From positions 548 to 64,547 of the forward strand of contig JAICJG010000001.1 in NCBI GenBank assembly GCA_025928585.1: a stretch of 64,000 bases of DNA, written 5' to 3'. Source of the DNA: Rhodanobacteraceae bacterium (GTDB lineage Bacteria; Pseudomonadota; Gammaproteobacteria; Xanthomonadales; Rhodanobacteraceae). A model generated the notes under the pieces. The model did no database searches. It was given only the letters and a program-made list of their open reading frames with translations, and was not told where the DNA came from. This document shows positions 37,494-54,563 of this stretch, one piece after another. How positions within the stretch are numbered: the first letter of the stretch is position 1; every line of letters begins with the position of its first letter. Both the position numbers and the translations under genes were made by a program.

Positions 37494-37570
37494 GGCCCCG
37501 TAGCTCAGTTGGATAGAGCGTCCCCCTCCTAAGGGGAAGGTCGCCCGTTCGAATCGGGCCGGGGTCGCCA
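37494..37570 (+). tRNA. tRNA-Arg (anticodon CCT)
   Basis: Cloverleaf folded by hand. The acceptor GGCCCCG pairs with CGGGGTC. The D-arm is TAGCTCAGTTGGATAGAGC, the anticodon arm is CCCCC-TCCTAAG-GGGGA with CCT at positions 34-36, the T-arm is GGTTCGAATCC-like (CGCCCGTTCGAATCGGGC), and the CCA end is encoded. Confidence 0.9.
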
Positions 37571-37674
37571 GTCCTGCGTTTCCCCCGCAAGGGAGCCGGC
37601 ATTCGCGTGGCCTACACGTTTCGCCTGCGAGCATGCGCCATCGCGATTGCGCCGGGGCGGCAAAGGTAGTCTGG

Positions 37675-38754
37675 ATGGGGCGACGAATCCTGTTTGGCGT
37701 CTATCACTGGGGTCTTGGCCATGCCACCCGGAGCCTCGGGCTGATCCGCGCGTTGCTGGATCGCGGCGACGAGGTGACGATCCTGATGCAGCCCGGCGGA
37801 GGCATGCAGCTGCTGAAGTCGGAACTCGGTGACGCCTGCGAGTACCTGCCCTTTCAGGACACGCCCGCCCCCTTCAGCCGCTATCCGGTGGTTTTCTACG
37901 TGCGCATGACCGCGGCGATGCCGTGGATCCTGGCGGGTTTCCGGCGCGAGCATCGCTTCACCGAAAAACTGGTTGCGGAGCGACACTTCGACCGCGTGGT
38001 GTCCGACAGCCGCTTCGGCGTGTGGTCGCGCGAAGTGCCGAGCTTTTGCATCCTGCATTCCATCCACCAGCGCGTGCCGTTCTTCAGCCGCTTCACCGAG
38101 TGGTGCGCGGAGCGCGGGCAGCGCGATCTTCTGAAGGGATTCACGAAAATCCTGATCCCGGACGTCGAGGAAAACGGGGGCCTGTCCGGCTGGCTGGGCC
38201 ACGAGCCGAATTTCGACTGGGGCGACGGACGATTGGCCTACATCGGGCCCTTGTCGAGCGTGCCGCGCCTCGACATCGAGCAGGATATCGACGTGTTCTT
38301 CTCGGTTTCCGGCATCGAGCCGCAACGCGGATTGCTGGAGGACCTCGTGCTCGATGCGCTGCCGCGGCTGTCCGGCAAGGTCGTCGTGACGCTCGGCCGG
38401 CCACGGGACGCCGGCGAATGCCGCGAAGTCGCGGGTGCGACCGTATACGACTATCTCGATCGCGAACGCCAGGCCGAAATGCTCAACCGCGCCAAGCTGG
38501 TGATGACCCGATCGGGCTATACCACCCTGATGGAACTCGCAGGTTTGGGCAGGCGGGCGCTGTTCGTCGCGACACCTGGCCAGAGCGAACAGGAATACCT
38601 CGCGCGGTTCCATCGCGAGCGCGGGCACGTGTGGTCGGTGGAGCAGAAGCACATGGACATCCCGCGCGACCTGGAGCGAGCCAAGGCCATGCGCGGCATA
38701 CCGCAAATGGACGCGGGCGCCTCAGTCGGACGATTTCTTGCCGCCATCGCCTGA
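37675..38754 (+). CDS. GT-B fold glycosyltransferase (MurG/GT28-related, MJ1255-like)
   Basis: ATG at 37675 gives MGRRILFGVYHWGLGHATRSLGLIRALLDRGDEV (N-terminal G-rich loop). The C-terminal donor-binding block is AKLVMTRSGYTTLMELAGLGRRALFVATPGQSEQEYLA. Its 3' end overlaps the convergent hpnL-like gene by 33 nt. Confidence 0.7.
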   Translation: MGRRILFGVYHWGLGHATRSLGLIRALLDRGDEVTILMQPGGGMQLLKSELGDACEYLPFQDTPAPFSRYPVVFYVRMTAAMPWILAGFRREHRFTEKLVAERHFDRVVSDSRFGVWSREVPSFCILHSIHQRVPFFSRFTEWCAERGQRDLLKGFTKILIPDVEENGGLSGWLGHEPNFDWGDGRLAYIGPLSSVPRLDIEQDIDVFFSVSGIEPQRGLLEDLVLDALPRLSGKVVVTLGRPRDAGECREVAGATVYDYLDRERQAEMLNRAKLVMTRSGYTTLMELAGLGRRALFVATPGQSEQEYLARFHRERGHVWSVEQKHMDIPRDLERAKAMRGIPQMDAGASVGRFLAAIA

Positions 38755-39726
38755 GTCGTGCTTGCCCCCGGACGGCATTTCGCGCCAGGTCGCGCCGACG
38801 ATAGGCAGCGAAAACATCCAGATGGCGCCGGTCCACACGATCCGGAAGCCGAGCATCATCGCGAGGCCGTCGGTGTAGCCGATGCCGTACGCCTGCGCGA
38901 TCACCATGCCGAGCAGGTCGATGGTGCCGATCTGGCTGACGAGACCCGCGCCGATCAGGATCACCGCGAGCGAGAACGCGTAGATCGTGGCGGCACTCCA
39001 GTAGTCGAGATGCTGCACGTGCATGCCGCGCCCGACCTGCCAGAACGCGATGGTCAGTGCGCCCAGGTATATGGCGGCCAGCACCAGGCTGACGCCGATC
39101 GTGTGCGGCGTGCACAGCTTGCGCAGGCCATCGAGCAATTCGACGCCGCCCTTGGCGATCTTCTTCAGCCATTCCCGGCGCACCCCGCCCGCGAGCTTGC
39201 GGGCCTTGTCCTCGAACACGACCGCGCCCGCCACGAACGCGACGAACAGTACCAGCAGCGCCACCGCCACCCAGCGGACCTCGCCCCAGCCCGGCAGCCC
39301 CATGACCGCCAGGAACAGGAAGACGACCGCGATCTCGACGAGCAGCATCATCACCGTGGCGGCGGCGCTGCGACCGACGTGCACTCGGCGCGAGGCCGAC
39401 ATCACCCAGTTCTGCGAAAACAGCCCGAGCGGCAACGTCACCGTCAGTTCGCCCACCGCGAATGCCAGCCAGAACGGGCGCGGCGAGATGCACACGCCGA
39501 TCCGGTTCAGCATCAGCCTGAGTTGCACCGCCTTGCAGCCGAGGTACACCGCGGCGGCGCCGACCGAAATGCCGATGACGTGGAGCGGCAGGCCGCGCAG
39601 CCGCGCCATCACCTTGCCGAGGTCGCCGAGGTTGAACGCGAACACCAGCAGTGCGGCCGCCAGCAGCACGGGCAGCACCACTCCGGGTTTGAGGACGTGC
39701 CGGATCCTGGACAGGAGTTTCAGCAT
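38722..39726 (-). CDS. hpnL: UPF0104 / lysyl-PG-synthase-TM (flippase-like) membrane protein, HpnL-like
   Basis: ATG at 39726 (MLKLLSRIRHVLKPGVVLPVLLAAALLVFAF). It has about 8 TM helices with the UPF0104 architecture. The start overlaps the upstream acyltransferase stop by 7 nt. Its position in the hpn locus matches TIGRFAM HpnL (recollection, not searched). Confidence 0.65.
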   Translation of the reverse strand: MLKLLSRIRHVLKPGVVLPVLLAAALLVFAFNLGDLGKVMARLRGLPLHVIGISVGAAAVYLGCKAVQLRLMLNRIGVCISPRPFWLAFAVGELTVTLPLGLFSQNWVMSASRRVHVGRSAAATVMMLLVEIAVVFLFLAVMGLPGWGEVRWVAVALLVLFVAFVAGAVVFEDKARKLAGGVRREWLKKIAKGGVELLDGLRKLCTPHTIGVSLVLAAIYLGALTIAFWQVGRGMHVQHLDYWSAATIYAFSLAVILIGAGLVSQIGTIDLLGMVIAQAYGIGYTDGLAMMLGFRIVWTGAIWMFSLPIVGATWREMPSGGKHDSGDGGKKSSD

Positions 39727-41021
39727 GGCGCCAGACGGTCGATGTCGGGCAGGAAGTCCGATAGCGCATTGTCCAGGTAGCGGACGACATTTTCTGGACG
39801 CCGCCACCCTGGCGGCACGTCGCACGGGCAGGTGTTCCGGAACGAGGTGCCTTCGCGGGCCACCAGCCCCTTGCGGTGCAGCCACTGCAATCTGCGGGCG
39901 GTGAGCCGGTCGACCGGTACCCGTTCAAACAGCGGGTCCACGGCCGCGCCGTGCCTGACCAGGCTGGCGTGCGCGTCCGCGAGCCACCGGGTAAGTTCGC
40001 CGGCCGCGAACACGGGCGACCCGTGCAGGAGAAAACGTGCGAGCAGGTAGCTCGGCGTGATCGTTACCAGATCGAGCACCGCTTGCCGCAGCTTCGCATC
40101 GAAATCGCGGCGCTCCACACGGGTGTCGGCGCGAAATGCCTGGCCCGCCCGGATCACCACCCGCGATTTTCCGGGTGCGAGCGTGTCGTAGCCGAGCCCG
40201 ATCGGCTGGATCCAAGGGGGCGACTCGGCCATGCGGGCGACGCGGAAGAACCCGCCGCGAACGCGACCAAAAGGTCCGGTTTCCGAAATCGTGCCTTCCG
40301 GCGAGAAGTAGATGCAGCACCCCCGGTCGAGGCGTCGCGCGAAGTGGGCGATTTGCCGTTCGACCGTGGCGCGAAAGCCCGGCGCGATGGCGGCGCGTGC
40401 CTCGTGGCCAAGCCTGCGCAGCCCCCACCAGCGCTCCAGCGCATCGTCGGAACGTTCGAGCAGCGCATTCACGGAACACGCGCCAGGATGGACGCCGGTT
40501 TCCCGCCGCCCGCGCGGGTTCAGCAGCGAACCCGCGTCCGCAGCGCCGAACCCCTCGGCCGCCAGCATGCACAGCGCTTCGCCGAGGGTGAATTCGCGGA
40601 CCCGCCGCATCGGTTCGGTACGCCCCAGCGGGAAGAACCACGCCAGCGAAATCCGGCGGAGCAGTCCCGAAACGGGGCGCGGCCAGTGCCCCGTGAGCCG
40701 CGCGAGTATTCCCGGGCGAAACAGGTCTTCGCGCGTCGCGTAGAAAGGCAAAGCGCCGAGGAAGCGCAGCCCGCGGCGATCCAGCAGCATGGTCCCCAAT
40801 ATCGGGCCGTCGATGTCCCGCTGGTGGTTGGATGCGACCATCGAGCCCGGCCGCATGCGGAAATCTTGCGGCAGCAGAACCTCACGGCGGTATACCGCGC
40901 TGATGTACAGATCGCCCGCGAACCGGAACAGCCAACTCGCAACCGGGTGGGGGTCGGCATCTTGGGTCGGCCATGTCTCGCGCGTGCGGATGGAGAACGC
41001 TGGCTCTGCGCGACGTTGCAT
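39720..41021 (-). CDS. PlsC-type (lysophospholipid) acyltransferase family protein, unusually long (433 aa)
   Basis: Contains the HX4D catalytic motif in VASNHQRDIDGPILG and a later FSPEGTIS (EGT-type) block. The ATG at 41021 directly abuts the TGA of the upstream GT2 gene (TGAATG). Confidence 0.7.
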   Translation of the reverse strand: MQRRAEPAFSIRTRETWPTQDADPHPVASWLFRFAGDLYISAVYRREVLLPQDFRMRPGSMVASNHQRDIDGPILGTMLLDRRGLRFLGALPFYATREDLFRPGILARLTGHWPRPVSGLLRRISLAWFFPLGRTEPMRRVREFTLGEALCMLAAEGFGAADAGSLLNPRGRRETGVHPGACSVNALLERSDDALERWWGLRRLGHEARAAIAPGFRATVERQIAHFARRLDRGCCIYFSPEGTISETGPFGRVRGGFFRVARMAESPPWIQPIGLGYDTLAPGKSRVVIRAGQAFRADTRVERRDFDAKLRQAVLDLVTITPSYLLARFLLHGSPVFAAGELTRWLADAHASLVRHGAAVDPLFERVPVDRLTARRLQWLHRKGLVAREGTSFRNTCPCDVPPGWRRPENVVRYLDNALSDFLPDIDRLAPC

Positions 41022-42131
41022 TCAACCGGCCCCGCGCTGGTAATGGCGGTCCTTCCACACCGAACGCGTGCCGCCGAGTGCGCGCCACGCGGAGTACCAG
41101 GCCGTGACGAGGAAGAAGGTCGCCGTCGCTGGCAGCAGCACCGCCGCCAGCGGATTGCGCCGGTAGTACACGAGGGTCGGCAGGTAACAGCAGCCCAGCA
41201 CGAGCCACGCGCCTGCGCCGAGCCAGCGGGCCGCGCCGTGACCCGCGGCCACCGCGAGCACCGGAATCCAGAACGCCAGCACCAGCAACGCCGTTGCCGC
41301 GATCAGCAACGCGAGCGATTCGCGCAACTGCACGAATGCCGTGCGCGCGATCATGTGGGCGATCCCACCGGCGTCTGCACGGCGCAGGCTCGTCGCGCCG
41401 CGGGTGAGCCCGATCCAGCAGCGATGGCCGGCCCGCTTGACGTGCGCGGCCAGCGTGCAATCATCGATGATGGCGTCTCGCCACGCGCCAAAGCCGCCGG
41501 CGTCCGCAAGTGCCTGCCGGTCCACCAGGACGACGCCGCCGGCCGCGGCCGCAACCCGCGAACGCATCCGGTTCGCGAGCCGGAACGGATACAGCAGCTT
41601 GAAGAAGTACACGAACGCGGGCATCAGCCAGCGCGCAGCCGCACCCGCCCAGCACGGTTCGGCGCACACCGACACCAGCGCATAACCCTCGTCGGCCTTG
41701 CGTTGCAGGGAGGCGGGCATGCCCCGCGTCAGCCGGATGTCCGCATCGAGCAGCAGCACGCGCGGCGTCGTGACATTCCGAATGCCTTGTTCCAGCGCCC
41801 AGAGCTTGCCGGTCCATCCGGCCGCCGGCGGTGTGCCCCGGATGAGCGTGAGATCGTCGAGGCCGCTGCCGCGGGCAACGGCCGCGGTCTCATCATCGGA
41901 TTGGTCGTCGATCACGATCACCGGTGCGCCTCGCGCGCAGACACGCAGCGCCGCGAGCGTGTCGCCCAGTACCGCCGCTTCGTTGCGCGCGGGGATCAAG
42001 ACCGTGAAGCCGGCTGGCTGCGCATCTTCGGCATCGTCGGCTTCCAGCCTCTCCGTGCAGCGCCATGCCTGCCACGGGAGCAACAGGACCGCCAGCCAGA
42101 GTGCGAGCGAGACGGCGGCGAGGATCAGCAT
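41022..42131 (-). CDS. hpnB: Family-2 glycosyltransferase, hopene-associated HpnB-like
   Basis: ATG at 42131. It has an N-terminal TM, then VLIPARNEAAVLGDTL...VIVIDDQSDDET...LLDADI (GT-A DxD). WTGKLWAL is present, and C-terminal TM helices follow. It lies 28 nt downstream of hpnH. Confidence 0.7.
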   Translation of the reverse strand: MLILAAVSLALWLAVLLLPWQAWRCTERLEADDAEDAQPAGFTVLIPARNEAAVLGDTLAALRVCARGAPVIVIDDQSDDETAAVARGSGLDDLTLIRGTPPAAGWTGKLWALEQGIRNVTTPRVLLLDADIRLTRGMPASLQRKADEGYALVSVCAEPCWAGAAARWLMPAFVYFFKLLYPFRLANRMRSRVAAAAGGVVLVDRQALADAGGFGAWRDAIIDDCTLAAHVKRAGHRCWIGLTRGATSLRRADAGGIAHMIARTAFVQLRESLALLIAATALLVLAFWIPVLAVAAGHGAARWLGAGAWLVLGCCYLPTLVYYRRNPLAAVLLPATATFFLVTAWYSAWRALGGTRSVWKDRHYQRGAG

Positions 42132-42159
42132 GTGGTGCCCGCCCGGCAGCGTCGGCGGG

Positions 42160-43290
42160 TCAGTTCCTGACGCCGCCGAAGTGCGCGATGGGAACGTTGC
42201 TGTGCGGGCTTCGCTGGTTGGGCTCGGGGGTGTCGTAGAGGATCGGCGGGTCGGCCGCGAACGCGCCCGTGAGCTTCGGCCCGCGGACGCTGGCCCAGAA
42301 GGCTTTGAGCGGATGCCGGAACGAATCGTCGGCCGCGGTGCCTTCGAAGCCGCAATGCGCCATGCAGTTCGCGCATTTTGGATTGCGCCCGACCCCGTAA
42401 TTTTCCCAATCGGTCTTCTCGATGAGGTCCGTGAAGGTGGGTACGTAGCCTTCGTCGACCAGCAGGTAGCACGGCTTCTGCCAGCCGAACACGTTGCGGC
42501 ACGGCATGCTCCACGCGGTGCACTGGTAGCCCTGGTTGCCGCACACGAAATCGAGGAAGAGGCTGGACTGCGACAGCGCCCATTTGCTGCGCTTTTCCTT
42601 CCTGCGCCGGAAGATCTGGCGCATCAGTTCCTTGGACTGGCGACGACCCATGAACACGTCCTGGCGCGGTGCGTGCTCGTAGGCGAAGCCCGGAGAGAAG
42701 GTGATGCCGTCGACCCCGAGATCATAGGTCGCGAAATCGAAGAATTCGGCGACTTCCTCGGGCTTGGCGGTGGTGAACAGGGTGGTGTTGATGTTGACCC
42801 GGAATCCGCGGCGCTTGGCTTCGCGGATCGCGGCCACCGCCGTGTCGAACACACCCTCGCGACCGACGCTTTCATCGTGCCGTTCGCGCATCCCGTCGAG
42901 GTGTACCGAGAACGTCAGGTGGTCGGATGGCGTGAACAGGTCGAGTTTCTTCTCGAGCAGGATCGCGTTGGTGCACAGATAGATGTACTTGCCGCGCGCG
43001 AGGAAGCCGTCGACGATCTCCTTGATGTCCTTGTGGACGAGTGGCTCGCCACCGGCGAGCGACACCATTGGCGCGCCGCATTCGTCCACTGCGTGCATGC
43101 ATTCCTCGACCGAAAGGCGCTCTTTCAGGATGTGCGAGTCGTAATCGATCTTGCCGCATCCGGGGCAGGCGAGATTGCACTGGAACAACGGCTCCAACAT
43201 CAGCGTCAGCGGATAACGTTTCACGCCGCGCAGCTTTTGGCCGATGATGTAGCTCGCGACCTTGACTTGTTGACGGATGGGGATGGACAT
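42160..43290 (-). CDS. hpnH: Adenosyl-hopene transferase, radical SAM (HpnH)
   Basis: ATG at 43290 (MSIPIRQQVKVASYIIGQKLRGVKRYPLTLMLEPLFQCNLACPGCGKI, with the CxxxCxxC cluster). Contains SLAGGEPL and LCTNAILL. The C-terminal Cys-rich CANCMAHCGFE follows the HpnH pattern. Confidence 0.88.
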   Translation of the reverse strand: MSIPIRQQVKVASYIIGQKLRGVKRYPLTLMLEPLFQCNLACPGCGKIDYDSHILKERLSVEECMHAVDECGAPMVSLAGGEPLVHKDIKEIVDGFLARGKYIYLCTNAILLEKKLDLFTPSDHLTFSVHLDGMRERHDESVGREGVFDTAVAAIREAKRRGFRVNINTTLFTTAKPEEVAEFFDFATYDLGVDGITFSPGFAYEHAPRQDVFMGRRQSKELMRQIFRRRKEKRSKWALSQSSLFLDFVCGNQGYQCTAWSMPCRNVFGWQKPCYLLVDEGYVPTFTDLIEKTDWENYGVGRNPKCANCMAHCGFEGTAADDSFRHPLKAFWASVRGPKLTGAFAADPPILYDTPEPNQRSPHSNVPIAHFGGVRN

Positions 43291-43448
43291 TCGTTGACTC
43301 CTCTGGCGCGGAGGCGCCCGGGGTGTGACCGGCGGGCGGTTGCAGTCGGTGGGGCTGGTCCCGATAGTGGACCCGCATGTGTCAAGGTGGCGTTGACGCG
43401 ACCCTCCCGCATCGCGGGCGAGCGCGGAATGCAGCAAAAAAACTTGCC

Positions 43449-43660
43449 GCGGATCGACCCGGGCCGACACAGCTGGAGCGAAAAGCAATTTGACGCGGAT
43501 AAAGCGGATGAACGCGGATCGAAGCAGAAGCATCAACGCGAATTGCGCGGATGAACATGGATGAAGCTCCCCGATTGGTTGCTTGACCCCCCCCTCTATC
43601 CGCGCTCCTCCGCTTCGGGAATTTCCTTTGCCCGATCCGTGTTGGTCGGTATATATCCGT
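43449..43660. promoter_or_regulatory. Array of GCGGAT hexamers (5 copies, 43449-43552) mirrored by ATCCG(C/T) (3 copies, 43598-43660) in the 420-bp gap between the idi and hpnH operons
   Basis: Counted directly. GCGGAT occurs at 43449, 43495, 43504, 43514 and 43547. ATCCGC occurs at 43598 and ATCCGT at 43635 and 43655. Two CAAAAAAACTT boxes lie at about 43435 and 43663. The region is visibly less GC-rich than its surroundings. Confidence 0.4.
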
Positions 43661-43710
43661 GTCAAAAAAACTTCCTTTGCTCTTTCGCGGCCCTCCGCAC
43701 GAGGTTCGTA

Positions 43711-44308
43711 TCAGTCCGTGGCAAGGGAATGCTTTTCGGGCAGGCGGGGCGTACCCTCGGGCAACCGGTCCGCGAACTCGCCGCGCAGCCGCTGCCATTC
43801 CAGTTTCAGCCACGGGGTGAAGCGTTCGGGCGTTTCGGCGATCTCGCGGTCGAGCGCTTCCGGCATCACGTAGCGCCATGCCGCAATCTCGGTCGCGTTG
43901 ACGTGCACCGGCGCGTCGGATGTGCCGACGTACACCCAGCACAGTTCCGTCTCGGAGCCGGCGTCCCCGTACTCCGCGTGGTACTGGAACTTGTAGACGA
44001 ATTCGAGCGGGCAGGTGAAACCGAGCTCCTCGCGCAGGCGGCGCCGGGTGGCGGCGACCATGTCCTCGCCGCCGCGCGGATGGCTGCAGCAGCTGTTGGC
44101 CCAATAGCCGGGCCATAGCGGCTTGCCCGTCGCGCGCTGCTGGAGCAGGAGTGCGCCCGCCGAATTGAACACGAACAGAGAGAACGCGCGATGCAGGATG
44201 CCTTTGCCCGCGTGCGCGTCGGCCTTGTTGGCGTGGCCGATCTCGCGGTCGGCGGCATCCACCAGGATCAGCCGCTCGGAATCGAACGACACCACGCGAT
44301 CATCGTGC

Positions 44309-44316
<8 letters not shown>
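43711..44316 (-). CDS. idi: Isopentenyl-diphosphate delta-isomerase, type 1 (Nudix)
   Basis: Contains HRAFSLFVFNSAGALLLQQRATGKPLWPGYWANSCCSHP.GGE...RRRLREELG, with the catalytic Cys and Glu blocks. The TTG start at 44316 overlaps the upstream stop by 8 nt, and later in-frame GTG starts are possible. Confidence 0.88.
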
Positions 44317-46567
<2,251 letters not shown>

Positions 46568-48727: not shown

Positions 48728-49735
48728 TCAAGCGGGGCGCCGCCGCGAGAAGTATCCCTGGTCGCGGAACCATTGTATTGCGTCGGCAAGCGCTTCCCGG
48801 GCGGGACGCGCGCGGTAGCCGAGTTCGGTCTCGGCGCGGCGGCTGGTGAAATACATCTTGTGGCGCGCGAGCTTGACGCCGTCCACGGTGATGGTGGGCG
48901 CACGGTCGCTGATCCGCGCCCACGCCTCGGCGGCGTGCGCGATCGGCAGGAGCGCACGATGCGGCAGGCGGATCTTGGGCCCGGCACGGCCGCTAAGTTC
49001 CGCGACGGTAGAGAGGATCTCGCGCAGGCTCATGTTCTCGCCGCCGAGAATGTAACGGCGCCCGCGCTCGCCGTGCCGGTACGCAAGCACGTGGCCCTCG
49101 GCGACGTCGTCGACGTGCACGATGTTGAGCCCGGTATCGACGTAGGCCGGCATCTTGCCGCGCGCCGCGTCGAGCACCATCTGCCCGGTGGGCGTGGGCT
49201 TGCGGTCGCGCGGGCCGACCGGTGCGGAGGGATTCACGATCACGATGTCCTGTCCCGCGCGCGCGCGCCGCCGCGCCGTTTTCTCGGACAGGTATTTCGA
49301 GCGCTTGTACTCGCCGATCATGTCGGCATAACTCGCGGGCGTTTCCTCGTCGGAAGGCGTGCCGTCCTCGTGCAGCCCGAGCGTGGCGACGCTCGAGGTG
49401 TGCACGATGCGCGCGACGCCGGCGCTTCTCGCGGCGGCCAGGATGTTGCGCGTTCCGCGCACGTTGGTCATGCGGATCTCTTCGGGATTACGCGCCCACA
49501 AGCGGTAATCCGCGGCGACGTGGAACAGCCCCTCGCACCCGTCCAGCGCAGCGCGCAGCGTGGGCGGATCGAGCAGGTCGCCGCGCACGATCTCGACGTC
49601 CGCGCCCTCGAGGGTGGTGGTGTCGCTGGTCGGGCGCGCGAGCGCGCGCACCTCGAAACCGTGGCGCAACAGCGCAAGGCACACCGCTGATCCCACGAAT
49701 CCGTTGCCGCCACTGACGAGAACGCGCGTGCTCAT
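48728..49735 (-). CDS. hpnA: Hopanoid-associated NAD-dependent sugar epimerase/dehydratase (HpnA)
   Basis: ATG at 49735 (MSTRVLVSGGNGFVGSAVCLALLRHGFEV, Rossmann GxxGxxG). It has Y-x3-K (YKRSK) and lies between hpnG and the MVA genes. Confidence 0.8.
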   Translation of the reverse strand: MSTRVLVSGGNGFVGSAVCLALLRHGFEVRALARPTSDTTTLEGADVEIVRGDLLDPPTLRAALDGCEGLFHVAADYRLWARNPEEIRMTNVRGTRNILAAARSAGVARIVHTSSVATLGLHEDGTPSDEETPASYADMIGEYKRSKYLSEKTARRRARAGQDIVIVNPSAPVGPRDRKPTPTGQMVLDAARGKMPAYVDTGLNIVHVDDVAEGHVLAYRHGERGRRYILGGENMSLREILSTVAELSGRAGPKIRLPHRALLPIAHAAEAWARISDRAPTITVDGVKLARHKMYFTSRRAETELGYRARPAREALADAIQWFRDQGYFSRRRPA

Positions 49736-50460
49736 GCAGCGACGCATGCCCGCGTGGCGAGGCGCGCGGCCGACGTCAGCGCGCGCCGCGCCTGCGAGAA
49801 GTCCTGCGCAAGCGAACGCACCGCGTTCCAGACGGGCGGGCCGCCGAACGCGATCGTGGACAGCATCCGCCAGGACGGTCCGCCACTGCCGCCGTCGAGC
49901 GCGCGCAGGACCCGCTGCGGCAGCTCGCGGCCGAGCGGGTCGCAGATCGCCTTCACCGCCACGAACGGCAGCCCGGCACGCGCCGCGACGGCCGCGATCG
50001 ATGCAGCTTCCATGTCCACGGCGATGGCGCCGGAACGTTCGGCGAGCGCGCGCTTGTCGGCCTCGTTGGCGAGCGGTTCGGCTGCCGACCACAAGGCGCC
50101 TTCGCGCACCCTCAGCGAGCCGGAACACGCCGCAATGATCCGCTCCCGGGCGCTCGCATCGGTGGCGAAACCGGGGTCGTCGGGAGCGTGCCGGATGCGA
50201 TCGGGCACCACGAGGTCGCCGGGCGCGAGGCTGCCGTCCAGCGCCCCCGCCACGCCCCAGTTCGCGATCCGGTCGATGCCGCACTCGAGCAGCCGTTCCG
50301 CGGCACGCAGCGCGTTGTGCGGTCCGATGCCCGACACGGCGATCCAGCCGTACTGCCAGCGCGCGCATCCGCCCGGCCGCACGCCCCGGACGCCTACGCT
50401 GCGGGCCTCCGCGGGCAGCGCGACGATCAGTCCGTTGCGGTCAGTCCGTTCGCTGGACAT
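49732..50460 (-). CDS. hpnG: Hopanoid-associated nucleoside phosphorylase/nucleosidase (HpnG)
   Basis: It is PNP_UDP_1-like. Contains GLIVALPAEAR, VSGIGPHNA, NWGVAGAL and AVDMEAASIA. There is an ATGA overlap with hpnA, and its start overlaps the shc stop by 20 nt. Confidence 0.8.
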   Translation of the reverse strand: MSSERTDRNGLIVALPAEARSVGVRGVRPGGCARWQYGWIAVSGIGPHNALRAAERLLECGIDRIANWGVAGALDGSLAPGDLVVPDRIRHAPDDPGFATDASARERIIAACSGSLRVREGALWSAAEPLANEADKRALAERSGAIAVDMEAASIAAVAARAGLPFVAVKAICDPLGRELPQRVLRALDGGSGGPSWRMLSTIAFGGPPVWNAVRSLAQDFSQARRALTSAARLATRACVAA

Positions 50461-52375
50461 TGCGGTATCGCACCAGCGCCCAGTACGGGAAGTAGCGGCT
50501 GTAACCGTGGTACTTGAGGTAGAACACCCGCGGAAAACCGGGTGCGTTGAAGCGCGTGTCGTGCCATTCGCCGTCGACCTGCGTCTTCAGCAGGTACTCG
50601 ATCCCGCGCGCGACCGCCGGGCTGCCCGCTTCGCCGGTTCGCATCAGCGCAAGCAAGGCCCACGCGGTCTGGGTCGGGCCACTGCGCGCGCCGCGCCCGC
50701 GCAGACTCGGGTCGAGGTAACTGTCGTTGCCTTCGCCCCAGCCGCCATCGGCCTGCTGCACCGACTTCAGCCATTCCGCAGCGCGCCGGATCGGGGGTGC
50801 ATGCACTTCGAGGCCGGCGGCCCGCAGCGCCACCACCACGGACCAGGTCCCGTAGATGTAATTGGTGCCCCAGCGCCCGAACCATGCGCCTTCGGGAGAC
50901 TGTTCGTCGAGCAGGAAACGCAGCACCCGTTCGCGGCTGTCGCGGTCCCGTGGCCGCCGCAGCAGCGACAACAGCAGCAACACCCGCCCGCTGACGTCGC
51001 TGGTCGGGGGATCGAGCAGGGCCCCATGGTCCGCGAACGGAATCTGGTTCAGCCACTGATGGTCGTTGTCGGCATCGAACGCGGCGAAGCCGCCGTCGCG
51101 TGACTGCATTCCGGTCAGCCAATCGCACGCCCGGCCGATCGCCTTCGAGAACGCAGCGCGGTCCGGCGACTGGTACATCGCCCGCGCCACCACCGCGGTG
51201 TCGTCGAGGTCGGGGTAGGCGTCGTTGCGGAACTGGAACGCCCAGCCGCCGCCGGGAAGCGTGCGGCGGTAGGTCCGCCAGTCGCCGGGAGCATCGAAGA
51301 GCTGGCGCGCCGCGAGCCAGTCGAGCGCACGGCGGATCGCCTGTTGCGGGGCGCCCGGGTCTTCCTGCATCGCGAGGCAGGTGAGGCCGGTATCCCACAC
51401 CGGCGAGACGCACGGCTGGCACCAGGCTTCCTGGTCGTGGATCACCAGGAGGTCGTCGATGGCCTTGCGGGTTTCGCGGCGCGCGGGATGCTCGGCCGGA
51501 TAGCCGAGCAGCGCCAGCGCCTCGTAGGCGTTGACCATCGCCGGGAAAATCGCGCCCAGCCCGCCGTCACCATTGCGACGCTCCAGGATCCAGGCTTCCG
51601 CGCGCCGCAGCGCGCGACGGCGCAGCCGGCGCGGGATCAGTGCTTCGCCGCTGCGGAGCGTCTTCTCGCAGGCGAACAGCAACCGGTTCAGCAGCGAACG
51701 CGGACGGAAATAGTGCTTTTCTTGCTCGGGCGGGGTGACGAACAATTCGCGGATGTCTACGCCGCGCGGGTTCGCCGCGCGCGGCTTCAGCGAAGTCAGT
51801 ACCGAAAGCGGCACCATGACCGTGCGCGACCAGTACGAGACCTTCATCAGGTTGAACGGAAACCAGCGCGGCAACAGCACGATTTCGACCGGCAGGAACG
51901 GCACCCCGCGCCAGGGCAACTCGCCGAACAATGCGAGTGCGATGCGCGTGAACACGTTGCTGCAGGCGGCGCCGCCTTCGGCGAGGATCGCCGAGCGTGC
52001 GCGCAACATGTGCGGCGCGTCGGGACGGTCACCGGCGAGCTTCAGGGCAAAATAGCACTTGACGCTGCAGCTCACGTCCATCGCACCGCCGGGATAGAGC
52101 GGCCAGCCGCCGTCGCGCGACTGGTGGTCGCGCAGGTACGCGGCCAGGCGAGATTCGAGCAGCCGGTCCGATTCGCCGAGGTAGTGCAGCATCAGGATGT
52201 ATTCGGCCGGGATGGTGCAGTCGGCTTCCAGTTCGTACTGCCAGTACCCGTCGGGGTGCTGCTTCGCGAGAAGGCGCGCACGGGCGGCCTCGATCCCGGC
52301 GTCCAGGCGGTCGCGCGACCGGTGGCTGCCGCGGGTTGCGGGGCGTGAATGCGGCAGGCCTGAATCCGGTGCCAT
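50441..52375 (-). CDS. shc: Squalene-hopene cyclase
   Basis: ATG at 52375. It has multiple QW repeats (QHPDGYWQYE, QSRDGGWPLY, RRNGDGGLGA, MQSRDGGFAAF, QSPEGAWFGRWG, VQQADGGWGE). The catalytic DxDD is in YPDLDDTAVV. The N-terminal 330 aa of track ORF 50441..53365 are rejected. Confidence 0.95.
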   Translation of the reverse strand: MAPDSGLPHSRPATRGSHRSRDRLDAGIEAARARLLAKQHPDGYWQYELEADCTIPAEYILMLHYLGESDRLLESRLAAYLRDHQSRDGGWPLYPGGAMDVSCSVKCYFALKLAGDRPDAPHMLRARSAILAEGGAACSNVFTRIALALFGELPWRGVPFLPVEIVLLPRWFPFNLMKVSYWSRTVMVPLSVLTSLKPRAANPRGVDIRELFVTPPEQEKHYFRPRSLLNRLLFACEKTLRSGEALIPRRLRRRALRRAEAWILERRNGDGGLGAIFPAMVNAYEALALLGYPAEHPARRETRKAIDDLLVIHDQEAWCQPCVSPVWDTGLTCLAMQEDPGAPQQAIRRALDWLAARQLFDAPGDWRTYRRTLPGGGWAFQFRNDAYPDLDDTAVVARAMYQSPDRAAFSKAIGRACDWLTGMQSRDGGFAAFDADNDHQWLNQIPFADHGALLDPPTSDVSGRVLLLLSLLRRPRDRDSRERVLRFLLDEQSPEGAWFGRWGTNYIYGTWSVVVALRAAGLEVHAPPIRRAAEWLKSVQQADGGWGEGNDSYLDPSLRGRGARSGPTQTAWALLALMRTGEAGSPAVARGIEYLLKTQVDGEWHDTRFNAPGFPRVFYLKYHGYSRYFPYWALVRYRNVQRTD

Positions 52376-52377
52376 GG

Positions 52378-53517
52378 CTATTTCGAGGTAGCGGCTTGGG
52401 CGGGGCCGCAGGCATCGCTGCGCGGCCATGCCGAGTGCGGAGCAGGCAGCAGGCCGCCCCAGTCGTCGGCCAGGGCCTGCAGCGGCAGGCCGTCCGCGAG
52501 CCGCGCGAACCAGCCCCGCAGCACGCGGCTGTAACCCGCGAACAGGTGCGTCACGATCACTACCTTCTTGACGACCTGGCGCGAGACCTTCACCTGCACG
52601 CCGGCCGTGAAATCGGGTTTGGCGAGGATCGAGCCGAGCGTGCGCATCGCGAGCCCCACCGCGATCAGGCAGAAGCGCCGGATTCCGACTTCCTTTTCCG
52701 GGATCAGCAGCGTGTAGTTCAGGGCGTTGCGCAAATGGCTGTGGGCGATGCCGATCAGTTGCGCATAGGCGTGCCCGAAGGCGGCCGGAACGCTGCCGCG
52801 CCTGATCGTCTGCAGGTCGACCCCGGCGCGGGCGAACAGGTCGCGCGGCAGCCAGCACACGCCGCGGTCGCGGTCTTCCCAGAAGTCCTTGAGGATGTTG
52901 GTCATCTGCAGGCCCTGGCCGAACGAGACGTCCAGCTCGGACATCGCTTCGCGCTGCTCCGCGATTCGGGGCGAGTATTCGCAGAACAACTCGGTGAGCG
53001 TCTGCCCGACGATGCCGGCGACGTAGTAGCAGTAGCGATCCATCTCGCGCATGTCGGCGAGGCCCGCGGTGCTGGCCTCGCGCTCGAAGCTCGGCATTCC
53101 GGTGCACATCGTGCGGATGCAGCGCGCCAGTGCTTCGCGCTGGGGCAGGTTGAAGCTGTCGGTGATCTCGATGATTTGCGGCGCGTGCTCGACCAAATCG
53201 CGTTCGGCGGGAAGGGTGCTGCCGTTCAACAGCGGTGCCAGGTCGCGCGCGAACGACGCGGGGTCCTCGGTCGAGCCGACCACCCGCGTGAAGCGGTCGT
53301 GGAACTGCTGCTTGACATCTGCCGGCAGGGATTGTTCGTCCTCGATGGTGTCCGCGATCCTGCACAACAGGTACGCGTTCGCGATCACCGTGCGCAGGCG
53401 CGCGTCGAGTTGCGGGATCGTCAATGCGAAGGTGCGCGAAACCGCGGGCAGGATCCGGTCCTGGTAGGCCCGGGCGGCGCGAGGCGGCGCGTGTGCGGCG
53501 GCGACATGGATTGTCAT
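52378..53517 (-). CDS. sqs: Squalene synthase (single-enzyme farnesyl-diphosphate farnesyltransferase type; squalene/phytoene synthase family)
   Basis: Contains SRTFALTIPQL, YLLCRIADTIEDE (Asp-rich 1), MDRYCYYVAGIVG, GQGLQMTNILKDFWEDRDRG (Asp-rich 2 region) and a hydrophobic C-terminal tail. Its stop is 2 nt before the shc start. Confidence 0.85.
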   Translation of the reverse strand: MTIHVAAAHAPPRAARAYQDRILPAVSRTFALTIPQLDARLRTVIANAYLLCRIADTIEDEQSLPADVKQQFHDRFTRVVGSTEDPASFARDLAPLLNGSTLPAERDLVEHAPQIIEITDSFNLPQREALARCIRTMCTGMPSFEREASTAGLADMREMDRYCYYVAGIVGQTLTELFCEYSPRIAEQREAMSELDVSFGQGLQMTNILKDFWEDRDRGVCWLPRDLFARAGVDLQTIRRGSVPAAFGHAYAQLIGIAHSHLRNALNYTLLIPEKEVGIRRFCLIAVGLAMRTLGSILAKPDFTAGVQVKVSRQVVKKVVIVTHLFAGYSRVLRGWFARLADGLPLQALADDWGGLLPAPHSAWPRSDACGPAQAATSK

Positions 53518-53606
53518 CCTGCGAGTCTCCTTCGGCGCGGGCCCTTCCGGTTACCTGCTGATCGTACCTATTGTCCGTGAAGATGAGGTGGAAATCGCCG
53601 CTGGTT

Positions 53607-53636
53607 TTGACACGTGTGCGGCGCGGTGGCTAGGCT
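53607..53636 (+). promoter_or_regulatory. Candidate sigma70 promoter for ispA (TTGACA-N18-TAGGCT)
   Basis: A perfect -35 hexamer lies at 53607-53612 and a TAnnnT -10-like hexamer at 53631-53636, about 43 nt upstream of the ispA ATG. This is a pattern match only. Confidence 0.3.
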
Positions 53637-53678
53637 CGCGGACTGCGCCCGAACCCGTTCCGCTGCCGGAGTCATGCC

Positions 53679-54563
53679 ATGCCCTTTGCCGATCGTGTCC
53701 CCGGCTATCTGGAACGCGTCGAACGCGCACTGGATTCGCGCCTGCCCCCGGGCGACACCCGGCCTGCATCGCTGCACGCCGCGATGCGCTACTCGGTGCT
53801 CGGCGGCGGCAAGCGGATCCGGCCATTGCTCTGCTACGCGGCGGGCGAGCTGCTGGGCGTCGATGCGGAACGCCTCGACGATGCCGCCTGCGCGGTCGAA
53901 TGCATCCACGCCTTTTCACTGGTTCACGACGATCTGCCGGCGATGGATGACGACTCGTTGCGGCGCGGCCGCCCATCCACCCACAAGGCATTCGGGGTGG
54001 CAATGGCGATCCTCGCCGGAGACGCCCTGCAGACGCGCGCGTTCGAAATTCTCGCCGGCGACGGCCGCGGCGATCCGGCGGCCCGGCTCGGGATGACGGC
54101 GGTCCTTGCGGCGGCGACCGGCTCGCTCGGCATGACCGGCGGGCAGGCGATCGACCTCGAATCGGAAGGCCGGCAACTTGCCGCGTCCGATCTGGAAGCA
54201 CTCGACCGCGCCAAGACTGGCGCCTTGATCCGCGCAGCGGTAGTGATGCCGTGCTGCGCCGCTCCGGGTCTTCCCCACGGCGCGCGCGAGGCGCTGGAGC
54301 GCTATGCCAGTGGCATGGGCCTCGCGTTCCAGATCAAGGACGACGTGCTGGACATCGAAGGCGACCAGGCGCTCACCGGCAAGACGCACGGCGCCGATGC
54401 CGCCCGCGGCAAGGCCACCTATCCGTCCCTGATGGGGATGGATGCGGCCCGCGCCCGGGCGGATGCGTTGTACGCCGATGCGTTGGCCGCGCTGGACCGC
54501 TTCGGGGATGCCGCGGAACCCTTGCGCTGGATGGCACGCTACATCGTGCACCGCGACCGCTGA
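53679..54563 (+). CDS. ispA: Farnesyl diphosphate synthase ((2E,6E)-FPP synthase)
   Basis: The first Asp-rich motif is LVHDDLPAMDDDSLRRGRP and the second is FQIKDDVLD. GKRIRPLL is present. It is divergent from sqs. Confidence 0.92.
   Translation: MPFADRVPGYLERVERALDSRLPPGDTRPASLHAAMRYSVLGGGKRIRPLLCYAAGELLGVDAERLDDAACAVECIHAFSLVHDDLPAMDDDSLRRGRPSTHKAFGVAMAILAGDALQTRAFEILAGDGRGDPAARLGMTAVLAAATGSLGMTGGQAIDLESEGRQLAASDLEALDRAKTGALIRAAVVMPCCAAPGLPHGAREALERYASGMGLAFQIKDDVLDIEGDQALTGKTHGADAARGKATYPSLMGMDAARARADALYADALAALDRFGDAAEPLRWMARYIVHRDR

What the first reader, a model, noticed from the sequence alone, without database searches (positions are those of the whole stretch)
37494..54563. Mevalonate-pathway genes embedded in a squalene/hopanoid operon: a roughly 17 kb isoprenoid supercluster next to tRNA-Arg
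Seen in the sequence: on the minus strand, sqs (53517) -> shc -> hpnG -> hpnA -> mvaD -> PMK -> HMGR::MVK -> idi (43711) are packed with junctions of +2, -20, -4, +89, -1, +17 and -8 nt. This looks like one largely translationally coupled unit. After a 420-bp gap comes hpnH -> GT2 -> acyltransferase -> hpnL (43290 -> 38722) with junctions of +28, 0 and -7 nt. ispA is divergent from sqs. A GT-B glycosyltransferase converges on hpnL. tRNA-Arg(CCT) lies about 100 bp from the cluster edge. Established knowledge: Proteobacteria normally make IPP by the MEP route. To my knowledge, the classical hpn loci (Zymomonas, Rhodopseudomonas, Burkholderia) carry no mevalonate genes. Inference: this is a self-contained HMG-CoA-to-hopanoid module, probably acquired or assembled as a block, that gives hopanoid synthesis its own precursor supply. 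This is my best candidate for the undescribed system in this window.
Basis: partly seen in the sequence, partly recalled or inferred. Interest (0 to 1): 0.8.

Follow-up and report, generated by a model that had tools for sequence, protein, structure and literature searches.

The report
Mevalonate genes inside a hopanoid operon
A soil-type gammaproteobacterium (uncultured Rhodanobacteraceae) keeps the genes that make the isoprenoid building block by the mevalonate route in the middle of its operon for hopanoid membrane lipids; the layout is real and shared by dozens of related species, but every enzyme is a known type, and I could not test whether the mevalonate route serves hopanoids alone or the whole cell.

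Summary
Every gene call, coordinate and junction holds. On the minus strand lie sqs-shc-hpnG-hpnA-mvaD-pmk-hmgr::mvk-idi, a 420-nt spacer, then hpnH, an HpnB-like GT2, an acyltransferase and an HpnL-like membrane protein. ispA is divergent, and a GT-B gene and tRNA-Arg(CCT) sit at the edge.

This is not a recently acquired island. G+C is uniform. Both flanking tRNAs and the full gene order recur in at least 14 species-level Rhodanobacteraceae MAGs, including a 3.29-Mb single-contig MAG. In all, 56 of 80 related species-representative loci from several gammaproteobacterial orders link the four-gene MVA cassette to squalene or hopanoid genes.

The same cassette also stands alone in Wenzhouxiangella and Rhodanobacter. 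A published survey scores Wenzhouxiangella as MVA-only and Rhodanobacter as having both pathways. "Private precursor supply for hopanoids" is therefore unproven, because I could not determine the MEP status of this lineage. General IPP supply placed beside its largest sink is slightly more likely.

HMG-CoA synthase is not linked. Precursor-pathway genes inside hpn clusters (ispH) and MVA clusters flanking Streptomyces terpenoid clusters are known precedents. I rate this a new variant of a known kind, of moderate interest.

The parts
37494..37570 (+). tRNA-Arg(CCT) at the cluster edge
   Evidence: ARAGORN; Rfam tRNA, 65 bits. The same tRNA lies next to the GT-B gene in L001, L008, L011, L013, L014, L015, L018, L025 and L038.
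37633..38754 (+). GT-B glycosyltransferase (MurG/GT28-like), convergent on the HpnL-like gene
   Evidence: Pfam Glyco_tran_28_C and Glyco_trans_1_3, both weak; NCBIfam gives only weak murG/MGT hits. It stays with the cluster in relatives at 78-85% identity. In distant relatives it is relocated next to ispA.
38722..39726 (-). HpnL-like integral membrane protein (LPG_synthase_TM family)
   Evidence: Pfam PF03706, 35.3 bits against cutoff 33.4. No NCBIfam family at E<=1e-3. The ATG at 39726 overlaps the acyltransferase stop by 7 nt. Relatives call a 333-aa product.
39720..41021 (-). Acyltransferase-like protein, 433 aa
   Evidence: Weak partial Pfam PF01553 match. No NCBIfam hit and no PDB relative. 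Conserved in position in relatives at 55-68% identity.
41022..42131 (-). HpnB-like family-2 glycosyltransferase
   Evidence: The best NCBIfam match is TIGR03469 HpnB, at 310 bits and full length, below the 379 cutoff. Pfam GT2 families match.
42160..43290 (-). hpnH, radical-SAM adenosylhopane synthase
   Evidence: TIGR03470, 520.7 bits against 225; Radical_SAM + DUF3463; CNLACPGC at residue 38; GAGGAG ahead of the ATG at 43290.
43291..43710 (.). 420-nt idi-hpnH spacer, probably holding an internal promoter for hpnH
   Evidence: Only the hpnH-proximal ~110 nt are conserved in relatives L009, L010, L017, L038 and L040. Spacer length in relatives ranges from -31 to 2252 nt. No Rfam match. Consensus promoter and terminator scans give background numbers only.
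43711..44316 (-). idi, type-1 (Nudix) IPP isomerase
   Evidence: NF002995, 167 bits against 127; TIGR02150, 150 against 106. Overlaps the fusion gene by 8 nt, as in relatives.
44309..46567 (-). hmgr::mvk, class II HMG-CoA reductase fused to mevalonate kinase (752 aa)
   Evidence: Pfam HMG-CoA_red (residues 21-394) + GHMP_kinases_N/C (527-751). TIGR00532, 424 bits, and TIGR00549, 236 bits, both above cutoff. All 120 listed homologues have the same three domains and most are about 750 aa.
46585..47607 (-). GHMP-family kinase, probable phosphomevalonate kinase
   Evidence: GHMP_kinases_N. The best NCBIfam match is TIGR01220 PMK, below cutoff. An ortholog profile hits PDB 3K17 (Lin0012) at 132 bits over full length, against 75 or less for MVKs. 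Its position between mvaD and mvk is invariant in all loci.
47607..48638 (-). mvaD, diphosphomevalonate decarboxylase
   Evidence: TIGR01240, 282 bits against 171. The phosphomevalonate-decarboxylase model scores 178, below its 475 cutoff. MVD-like_N + MDD_C.
48728..49735 (-). hpnA, hopanoid-associated SDR/sugar-epimerase-like protein
   Evidence: TIGR03466, 481 bits against 368.
49732..50460 (-). hpnG-like nucleosidase/phosphorylase
   Evidence: PNP_UDP_1. The best NCBIfam match is TIGR03468 HpnG, 147 bits, below the 187 cutoff. Position between shc and hpnA is conserved.
50441..52375 (-). shc, squalene-hopene cyclase
   Evidence: TIGR01507, 787 bits against 431; both SQHop_cyclase domains; DLDDTA at residue 389.
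52378..53517 (-). sqs, one-step (eukaryote-type) squalene synthase, first gene of the operon
   Evidence: SQS_PSY, 183 bits. The best NCBIfam match is TIGR01559 squal_synth, not HpnC or HpnD. The best PDB relatives are T. cruzi and human squalene synthases. DTIED56 and DFWED211 are present.
53679..54563 (+). ispA, farnesyl diphosphate synthase, divergent from sqs
   Evidence: NF045485 FPPsyn, 329 bits against 275; DDLPAMD84 and DDVLD221. The divergent ispA/sqs pair is conserved in relatives.

Best explanation
This is a chromosomal, vertically inherited isoprenoid supercluster of an uncultured Rhodanobacteraceae lineage.

One tightly packed unit, sqs-shc-hpnG-hpnA-mvaD-pmk-hmgr::mvk-idi, is followed by hpnH, an HpnB-like GT2, an acyltransferase and an HpnL-like protein. 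In this clade the second unit probably has its own promoter. ispA is divergent.

Together the genes encode this route: HMG-CoA to mevalonate, to mevalonate-5-P, to mevalonate-5-PP, to IPP and DMAPP, to FPP, to squalene (single-enzyme SQS rather than HpnCDE), to hopene, to adenosylhopane, to ribosylhopane or bacteriohopanetetrol. Further glycosyl or acyl decoration is uncharacterised.

The four-gene MVA cassette (mvaD-pmk-hmgr::mvk-idi) is a module shared by many Gammaproteobacteria. In this and several other lineages it sits inside the hopanoid operon. Most likely it is the cell's general, possibly only, source of IPP, co-located and co-expressed with the largest isoprenoid sink. It is less likely to be a hopanoid-only supplement.

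Shown: gene identities, packing, conservation and the resident (non-island) status. Inferred: co-transcription, the products, and the general rather than dedicated role.
For: - Family assignments and intact motifs.
- Overlapping or near-abutting junctions.
- Identical order from ispA to the GT-B gene in L001/L002, L008, L010, L011, L013, L014, L015, L017, L018, L020, L025, L038, L040 and L043, and the sqs-to-idi unit with divergent ispA in a 3.29-Mb single-contig MAG (the locus ends just past idi).
- 56 of the 80 species-representative loci from the genome scan (L005-L084) have at least one squalene or hopanoid gene next to the cassette. These include loci labelled Natronospirales, Arenicellales, Salinisphaerales and Lysobacterales SP244.
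- On a neighbour-joining tree of the fusion protein, the linked state lies on deep branches and the stand-alone state is nested within them.
- idi and hpnH overlap or nearly abut in more distant relatives.
- G+C and GC3 match the flanks. tRNA-Arg and tRNA-Ala flank the cluster in relatives. The fusion is on no plasmid.
- For a general rather than dedicated role: the cassette persists without hpn genes among unrelated housekeeping genes. Wenzhouxiangella, Woeseia and Dyella caseinilytica are scored MEV-only in PMC13001223 Table S1.
- The cluster's ispA scores above the cutoff of NCBI's FPP-synthase model. It is not in the xseB-ispA-dxs arrangement seen in E. coli.
Against: - The MEP status of this genome and its clade is unknown.
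- The one Rhodanobacter species in the survey is scored 'Both', and other Rhodanobacteraceae genera (Frateuria, Luteibacter, two Dyella species) are MEP-only. Co-existence is therefore plausible.
- HMG-CoA synthase and thiolase are not within 10 kb in any locus with Pfam-annotated gene calls (L093 shows only one side), so the source of HMG-CoA is unverified.
- Co-transcription is inferred from spacing only. The +89 and 420-nt gaps could hold promoters, and the consensus scans are uninformative.
- No hopanoid transporter (hpnN) or hpnI/J/K/O-type genes turned up among the window ORFs scanned.
Confidence: 0.6

Rival explanations
1. Dedicated supply. The lineage keeps a complete MEP pathway for quinones and undecaprenyl phosphate. 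The operon-embedded MVA cassette is a private IPP/DMAPP source, co-regulated with hopanoid synthesis, in the way Streptomyces MVA clusters feed adjacent terpenoid clusters.
For: - MVA genes lie between hpnA and hpnH with overlapping junctions, and the layout is conserved in many species.
- Rhodanobacter is scored as having both pathways, and most Rhodanobacteraceae genera in the survey are MEP users.
- In Streptomyces, an MVA pathway that co-exists with MEP is reported to flank a hybrid-isoprenoid cluster (PMC4650096).
- MEP genes such as ispH sit inside hpn clusters elsewhere (PMC4263297).
Against: - No MEP gene was seen in the 64-kb window or in the 84 related loci. This is weak evidence, because MEP genes are normally scattered.
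- The cassette is kept without hpn genes in several lineages.
- Three of the four cassette-relevant gammaproteobacterial taxa in the survey are MEV-only.
- The FPPS gene, which scores above the FPP-synthase model cutoff, is part of the cluster.
Confidence: 0.33
2. Recently acquired genomic island, integrated at tRNA-Arg(CCT) as a ready-made block from another phylum.
For: - A tRNA gene lies about 60 nt from the cluster edge.
- MVA is unusual for Proteobacteria.
- A few near-identical fusion genes sit in MAGs labelled Gemmatimonadaceae, Casimicrobiaceae or Thermoanaerobaculia.
Against: - G+C is uniform at 0.63-0.71 across cluster and flanks, and GC3 is 0.82-0.89, like the neighbours.
- I saw no integrase, transposase or direct repeat among the scanned ORFs next to it.
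- The same cluster lies between the same two tRNAs in many species at 73-97% protein identity.
- It is not on plasmids.
- The odd taxon labels are single MAG contigs and are compatible with binning errors.
Confidence: 0.04
3. The HMGR ('degradative' class II) and kinases serve mevalonate catabolism or salvage, not biosynthesis.
For: NCBI names the protein 'hydroxymethylglutaryl-CoA reductase, degradative'. HMG-CoA synthase is not linked.
Against: - The TIGR00532 name covers class II enzymes generally (own knowledge).
- The reductase is fused to mevalonate kinase and sits with PMK, diphosphomevalonate decarboxylase and IDI. These form an ATP-driven, irreversible biosynthetic sequence.
- No HMG-CoA lyase gene is adjacent.
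Confidence: 0.03

Closest known systems
Classical hpn (hopanoid) gene clusters of Zymomonas, Rhodopseudomonas, Burkholderia and Rhodomicrobium
   Same: shc, hpnG, hpnH, hpnA, an HpnB-like GT2 and an HpnL-like membrane protein are clustered. A precursor-pathway gene can be embedded: ispH lies inside the Rhodomicrobium udaipurense cluster (PMC4263297). The Alphaproteobacteria survey draws isoprenoid-precursor genes inside hpn clusters and states that the functions of hpnA, hpnB and hpnL are unknown (PMC12583986).
   Different: Squalene is made here by a single eukaryote-type SQS rather than HpnC/D/E. The embedded precursor genes are a complete lower MVA pathway plus idi, not one MEP gene. No hpnN or hpnI/J/K/O/P/R-type genes turned up among the window ORFs scanned.
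Streptomyces mevalonate clusters flanking hybrid-isoprenoid and terpenoid biosynthetic gene clusters
   Same: MVA genes are physically attached to the cluster for one isoprenoid product. In Streptomyces the host also has MEP, and the MVA pathway feeds the adjacent product (PMC4650096).
   Different: - The Streptomyces cluster has six separate genes including HMG-CoA synthase; its IDI is type 2 and its HMGR class I (these two points are my own knowledge).
- Here there are four genes, with a class II HMGR fused to MVK, a type-1 IDI and no HMGS.
- The product is a membrane lipid, not a secondary metabolite.
- Co-existence with MEP is unproven here.
Acidobacteria subdivision 22 MAG 'Mor1' (Sinninghe Damste et al. 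2017, PMC5462960)
   Same: A genome with MVA genes, no detected MEP genes, shc, hpnH and a squalene-synthase-type gene instead of hpnCDE. This is the same biochemical combination.
   Different: It belongs to a different phylum. The paper notes the combination only in passing. The gene order there could not be compared here because figures are not held. It has no HMGR::MVK fusion that I know of.
Stand-alone gammaproteobacterial MVA cassette (Wenzhouxiangella, Rhodanobacter lindaniclasticus and others)
   Same: The same four genes in the same order, with the same fusion, at 66-73% identity.
   Different: No squalene or hopanoid genes within 10 kb; the neighbours are unrelated housekeeping genes.
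Gram-positive MVA operons (mvaK1-mvaD-mvaK2) and the Enterococcus MvaE thiolase/HMGR fusion
   Same: Class II HMGR, GHMP-type MVK and PMK, and MDD in an operon. The nearest solved PMK-like structure is Listeria innocua Lin0012. Fusion of HMGR to another pathway enzyme has a precedent in MvaE (own knowledge).
   Different: The fusion partner here is mevalonate kinase, not thiolase. The operon is embedded in a product pathway.

Membership tests
hpn hopanoid biosynthesis cluster | Squalene-hopene cyclase with a DxDD motif | tested here: met
   TIGR01507, 787 bits against 431; DLDDTA at residue 389.
hpn hopanoid biosynthesis cluster | HpnH radical-SAM adenosylhopane synthase | tested here: met
   TIGR03470, 520.7 bits against 225; CxxxCxxC present.
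hpn hopanoid biosynthesis cluster | HpnG nucleosidase/phosphorylase | tested here: inconclusive
   The best family is TIGR03468 HpnG, but at 147 bits it falls below the 187 cutoff. The conserved position between shc and hpnA supports the call.
hpn hopanoid biosynthesis cluster | HpnA and HpnB accessory proteins | tested here: inconclusive
   HpnA is met (481 against 368). The HpnB-like GT2 scores 310 against 379, below cutoff but the best match and full length.
hpn hopanoid biosynthesis cluster | HpnC/HpnD/HpnE three-step squalene synthesis | tested here: not met
   The only SQS_PSY protein scores 58-77 bits on HpnC/HpnD, against cutoffs of 250-279, and matches eukaryote-type SQS best. No HpnE-like amine oxidase was found in the cluster.
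hpn hopanoid biosynthesis cluster | HpnL membrane protein (NCBIfam/TIGRFAM HpnL model) | tested here: not met
   No NCBIfam family at E<=1e-3. Only Pfam LPG_synthase_TM, 35 bits against 33.4. It is HpnL-like by Pfam family and position only.
hpn hopanoid biosynthesis cluster | HpnN RND hopanoid transporter | tested here: not met
   No RND-family protein among the window ORFs scanned. It may be encoded elsewhere in the genome.
Classical (eukaryote/Gram-positive type) mevalonate pathway | HMG-CoA reductase | tested here: met
   Class II; TIGR00532, 424 bits against 260.
Classical (eukaryote/Gram-positive type) mevalonate pathway | Mevalonate kinase | tested here: met
   C-terminal half of the fusion; TIGR00549, 236 bits against 163.
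Classical (eukaryote/Gram-positive type) mevalonate pathway | Phosphomevalonate kinase | tested here: inconclusive
   The best NCBIfam match is TIGR01220, 78 bits against 166. The profile matches PDB 3K17 (Lin0012) at 132 bits over full length, well above MVKs. That Lin0012 is the Listeria PMK is my own knowledge.
Classical (eukaryote/Gram-positive type) mevalonate pathway | Diphosphomevalonate decarboxylase, as opposed to the phosphomevalonate decarboxylase of alternative routes | tested here: met
   TIGR01240, 282 bits against 171. NF040704 scores 178 against 475.
Classical (eukaryote/Gram-positive type) mevalonate pathway | HMG-CoA synthase and acetoacetyl-CoA thiolase | tested here: not met
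   Neither is in the 64-kb window nor within 10 kb of the cassette in L001-L004, L091 and L092; L093 shows only the ispA side.
Dedicated (pathway-private) precursor supply, Streptomyces type | A complete second IPP pathway (MEP) in the same genome | not testable with these tools
   Only 64 kb of the genome is available, and it holds no MEP gene, nor do the related loci. The search for clade-specific homologues was saturated by the clade itself, so I could not obtain a MEP query.
Dedicated (pathway-private) precursor supply, Streptomyces type | MVA genes physically attached to the product cluster | tested here: met
Genomic island at a tRNA gene | Deviant composition, mobility genes, patchy presence among close relatives | tested here: not met
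   Composition is uniform. No integrase or transposase Pfam hit was seen at the borders. The cluster is present in every clade locus whose contig reaches far enough, with the same flanking tRNAs.

The most novel reading that the evidence does not exclude
The lineage keeps a full MEP pathway for quinones and cell-wall carrier lipid. It uses the operon-embedded MVA cassette, fed by an unlinked HMGS or by HMG-CoA from leucine catabolism, as a private and co-regulated IPP supply for hopanoids. To my knowledge this would be the first case of two-pathway partitioning for a bulk membrane lipid in Proteobacteria. It would also mean hopanoids, the lipids whose labelling led to the discovery of the MEP route, being made by the mevalonate route.
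Probability: 0.3. Interest if true: 0.65.

Novelty: new variant of a known kind. Interest (0 to 1): 0.4.

Why it matters
Hopanoids are major bacterial membrane lipids and geological biomarkers. In the organisms studied so far their precursors come from the MEP pathway; labelling of hopanoids is in fact how that pathway was discovered (own knowledge; Rohmer 2008 is cited in PMC10663253).

A widespread and abundant group of soil and bioreactor Gammaproteobacteria appears to make them from mevalonate, with all steps from HMG-CoA onward encoded at one locus. This matters in three ways:
- It changes the expected isotope and labelling signatures for part of the environmental hopanoid pool.
- It offers a compact natural 'HMG-CoA to hopanoid' module for engineering.
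- If MEP co-exists, it gives a tractable bacterial system for asking why cells keep two IPP pathways.

The HMGR::MVK fusion is very common in public data, yet in the source names listed it is called only 'HMG-CoA reductase, degradative'. That is an annotation gap worth fixing.

Tried and rejected
1. Finding the source contig by exact protein look-up (hpnH). It is not on record. The nearest genome has 97% identity on the fusion (L005), so the window comes from an unsampled species.

2. Testing for MEP genes.
- No hit with E. coli IspH, Dxr, IspG, Dxs, IspD or IspF in the window or in 84 related loci.
- I tried to reach an xseB-ispA-dxs locus of an outgroup through IspA homologues. All 120 listed hits were the same clade at 78% identity or more.
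- I looked for a Xanthomonadales replicon in PLSDB with E. coli IspG and found none.
- Result: MEP status is undetermined.

3. Reading the species rows and pathway classes for Pseudomonadota in Table S1 of PMC13001223. The stored file is truncated and tab-separated phrases are not searchable. Only genus-level rows were recovered.

4. Consensus promoter and terminator scans of the cluster give background numbers only.

5. An Rfam search of the cluster and spacer finds only the tRNA.

6. A PDB sequence search for the acyltransferase finds nothing.

7. Six literature searches for a prior description of MVA genes in a hopanoid operon of Gammaproteobacteria, or of an HMGR-MVK fusion, found none.

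8. The first tree script timed out. I repeated it with a faster distance calculation.

Full report
OBSERVATION

The window is uniformly G+C-rich at 0.63-0.71. ARAGORN finds tRNA-Arg(CCT) at 37494-37570 and tRNA-Ala(CGC) at 61469-61544. The only latitude is the mvaD start, where +74, +26 or -4 are also possible. The fusion-gene start at ATG 46567 gives the 752-aa length shared by the relatives.

Pfam and NCBIfam support every assignment. These score above the curated cutoffs:
- SHC: 787 bits
- HpnH: 521 bits
- HpnA: 481 bits
- diphosphomevalonate decarboxylase: 282 bits
- class II HMG-CoA reductase (424 bits) fused in one 752-aa ORF to mevalonate kinase (236 bits)
- type-1 IDI: 167 bits
- FPP synthase: 329 bits

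Three calls are the best match but fall below cutoff: HpnG, the HpnB-like GT2, and the GHMP kinase between mvaD and the fusion. For that kinase I built a profile from seven orthologs. It matches PDB 3K17 (Listeria innocua Lin0012, which I know as that organism's phosphomevalonate kinase) over its full length at 132 bits, against 75 or less for mevalonate kinases. PMK is therefore the best reading.

The squalene synthase is the one-step eukaryote type, with T. cruzi and human SQS as its best PDB relatives. It is not HpnC or HpnD. Catalytic motifs of SHC, HpnH, SQS and FPPS are intact, and there are no internal stops.

SURROUNDINGS

The rest of the window encodes ordinary chromosomal functions. 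These include htpG, lgt, corA, the miaB-phoH-corC group, suhB, trmJ, pitA, pyrD, an aldehyde dehydrogenase, a formate-dehydrogenase-like oxidoreductase and RNase D. None of the ORFs I scanned in the 64 kb matched an MEP enzyme, HMG-CoA synthase, thiolase, an RND transporter, an integrase or a transposase.

WHO IS IT, AND IS THE LAYOUT CONSERVED?

The fusion protein has more than 8000 homologues. The closest, at 88-95% identity, come from MAGs labelled Rhodanobacteraceae. Others at 66-73% come from Oleiagrimonas, Rhodanobacter, Wenzhouxiangella and Arenicellales. A scan of one genome per species returned at least 585 genomes encoding a relative, and the best 80 loci were kept.

A tblastn synteny table using the 15 cluster features shows three things:
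- The complete order from ispA through sqs-shc-hpnG-hpnA-mvaD-pmk-hmgr::mvk-idi-hpnH-GT2-acyltransferase-membrane protein to the convergent GT-B gene recurs wherever the contig is long enough. It is seen in L001/L002 and in 13 further species-level genomes: L008, L010, L011, L013, L014, L015, L017, L018, L020, L025, L038, L040 and L043. L043 includes the 1.09-Mb scaffold of 'Lysobacterales bacterium 66-474'.
- At 73-82% identity the core from sqs to hpnH is kept, while the tail genes are moved or lost (L003, L033, L034, L036, L039, L046-L058).
- Variants that still link the cassette to squalene or hopanoid genes occur in MAGs labelled Natronospirales, Arenicellales, Salinisphaerales and Lysobacterales SP244.

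In total, 56 of the 80 loci carry at least one squalene or hopanoid gene beside the cassette. Eighteen have a stand-alone cassette with adequate flanks, and six are too short to judge. The IspA look-up shows the sqs-to-idi unit with divergent ispA on a single 3.29-Mb MAG contig (L093; the locus ends just past idi).

On a neighbour-joining tree of the fusion protein, the linked state sits on deep branches. The stand-alone state forms nested groups: Rhodanobacter in the strict sense, Wenzhouxiangella, and L032/L035/L037. The simplest reading is an old linkage that has been lost repeatedly. This is an inference from a distance tree, not a tested reconstruction.

ISLAND OR RESIDENT?

Five lines of evidence point to a resident locus:
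- Composition does not differ from the flanks.
- tRNA-Arg(CCT) lies beside the GT-B gene, and tRNA-Ala(CGC) on the ispA side, in many relatives.
- Identities of all cluster genes fall together with distance.
- No PLSDB plasmid carries the fusion.
- Sequence beyond tRNA-Arg differs between genomes, so the tRNA may be a hotspot for other insertions.

The cluster is therefore an old resident of this chromosome region.

TRANSCRIPTION UNITS (INFERRED)

Overlaps and gaps of 2-17 nt from sqs to idi suggest one unit. The +89 gap before mvaD is variable among relatives, from about -22 to about +208 nt.

The idi-hpnH spacer is 420 nt here. It is 34-440 nt in most close relatives, over 900 nt in three of them, and overlapping or very short in distant ones. 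Only its last ~110 nt are conserved. That stretch contains a TTGACA-type element visible in the sequence, so a second promoter for hpnH is likely in this clade.

Consensus promoter and terminator scans are at background, and Rfam finds only the tRNA.

MECHANISM

The encoded enzymes give a continuous route:
1. HMG-CoA to mevalonate (HMGR).
2. Mevalonate to the 5-phosphate (MVK, fused to HMGR).
3. The 5-phosphate to the 5-diphosphate (PMK).
4. The 5-diphosphate to IPP (MvaD).
5. IPP to DMAPP (IDI).
6. FPP (IspA).
7. Squalene (SQS).
8. Hopene (SHC).
9. Adenosylhopane (HpnH).
10. Ribosylhopane (HpnG), and from there bacteriohopanetetrol.

HpnA, the HpnB-like GT2, the acyltransferase, the HpnL-like membrane protein and the GT-B enzyme probably decorate or export the product. 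The functions of hpnA, hpnB and hpnL are stated to be unknown even in model organisms (PMC12583986).

HMG-CoA synthase is not linked in any locus with Pfam-annotated gene calls. The entry point is therefore an unlinked HMGS or, speculatively, HMG-CoA from leucine catabolism.

DEDICATED OR GENERAL SUPPLY?

I tried several routes to the MEP status of the clade, and none worked.

The indirect evidence points both ways. In a 2026 survey (PMC13001223, Table S1), Wenzhouxiangella, Woeseia and Dyella caseinilytica are scored MEV-only and the one Rhodanobacter species is scored Both. Frateuria, Luteibacter, Dokdonella and two other Dyella species are scored MEP-only. Three observations favour a general IPP source:
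- The cassette survives without hpn genes among unrelated housekeeping genes.
- An FPP-synthase-model ispA sits in the cluster, not beside dxs as in E. coli.
- Single MAG contigs of the clade are only about 3.0-3.3 Mb.

I put this reading at roughly 0.6 and the dedicated-supply reading at roughly 0.3.

COMPARISON WITH WHAT IS KNOWN

Four precedents are relevant:
- Precursor-pathway genes inside hopanoid clusters are known for MEP; ispH lies within the Rhodomicrobium cluster (PMC4263297).
- MVA clusters attached to a product cluster are the rule in Streptomyces strains that have both pathways (PMC4650096).
- An MVA-only acidobacterial MAG with shc, hpnH and an SQS-type gene was noted in 2017 (PMC5462960).
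- The stand-alone gammaproteobacterial cassette is present in cultured Wenzhouxiangella and Rhodanobacter lindaniclasticus.

What is different here is a complete lower MVA pathway with an HMGR::MVK fusion, interleaved between hpnA and hpnH of a proteobacterial hopanoid operon, together with a one-step SQS. The arrangement is conserved across dozens of uncultured species. Six literature searches found no description of it.

VERDICT

The feature is real, conserved and neatly organised. It is built from known enzyme families, and it extends a known theme of precursor genes riding with a product cluster. I classify it as a new variant of a known kind, with interest about 0.4. The value would rise if MEP proves to co-exist, because that would mean true pathway partitioning for a membrane lipid. 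A single hmmsearch on the source genome or on the single-contig MAGs would settle this.

Noticed in passing
window 44309-46567 (-): The HMGR::MVK fusion is extremely common: more than 8000 homologues, at least 585 species-level genomes, and all 120 listed hits carry all three domains. Every source name that is listed calls it 'hydroxymethylglutaryl-CoA reductase' (usually 'degradative') or 'hypothetical protein', with no mention of the kinase half. One listed relative is 1131 aa (P0110) and may carry a further domain. I found no paper on this fusion.
   Followed up: partly
window 43291-43710: The 420-nt idi-hpnH spacer is the most A+T-rich stretch of the region. It has two T7 runs, and its first ~300 nt have no counterpart in any relative. 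Only the ~110 nt next to hpnH are conserved. In three relatives the same spacer is 960-2250 nt (L014, L038, L040), so this is a hotspot for insertions.
   Followed up: partly
window 37494-37570; loci L001, L008, L011, L013, L014, L015, L018, L025, L038: Relative to the cluster, tRNA-Arg(CCT) is in one orientation in L001, L008, L015, L038 and the window, and in the opposite orientation in L011, L013, L014, L018 and L025. Genes beyond it differ between genomes: an esterase and aldehyde dehydrogenase here, a kumamolisin-type peptidase in L001. L002 has a Prim-Pol/PriCT_1 gene about 1 kb beyond ispA.
   Followed up: no
window 25342-28197 (+): A 951-aa protein combines E1_dh with the transketolase pyrimidine-binding and C-terminal domains, so it looks like a fused alpha/beta 2-oxoacid dehydrogenase E1. 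It is not Dxs, because no DXP_synthase_N match was reported.
   Followed up: no
window 54639-56507 (+): A 622-aa TPR protein lies directly downstream of ispA, with weak similarity to CadC/HilA-type activators. It is not conserved at this position. In the 3.29-Mb single-contig MAG, ispA is followed directly by RNase D, which in the window lies 7 kb further on (61797-62882). The TPR gene, an unassigned ORF, the formate-dehydrogenase-like gene and tRNA-Ala lie between them here.
   Followed up: partly
loci L032, L042, L081: Near-identical cassettes (69-82% identity) sit in MAGs labelled Gemmatimonadaceae, Casimicrobiaceae and Thermoanaerobaculia. These could be binning errors or real transfers.
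   Followed up: no
locus L052: One Rhodanobacteraceae MAG has ispA and sqs directly followed by the MVA cassette, with no shc, hpnG, hpnA or hpnH. This looks like an intermediate in which the hopanoid genes were lost while squalene synthesis and MVA were kept.
   Followed up: no
window, many positions (e.g. 39876-42170 +, 44123-46744 +): Long antisense ORFs of up to 873 aa overlap the real genes. This is the usual artefact of a 67% G+C genome. GC3 picks out the coding frame.
   Followed up: yes
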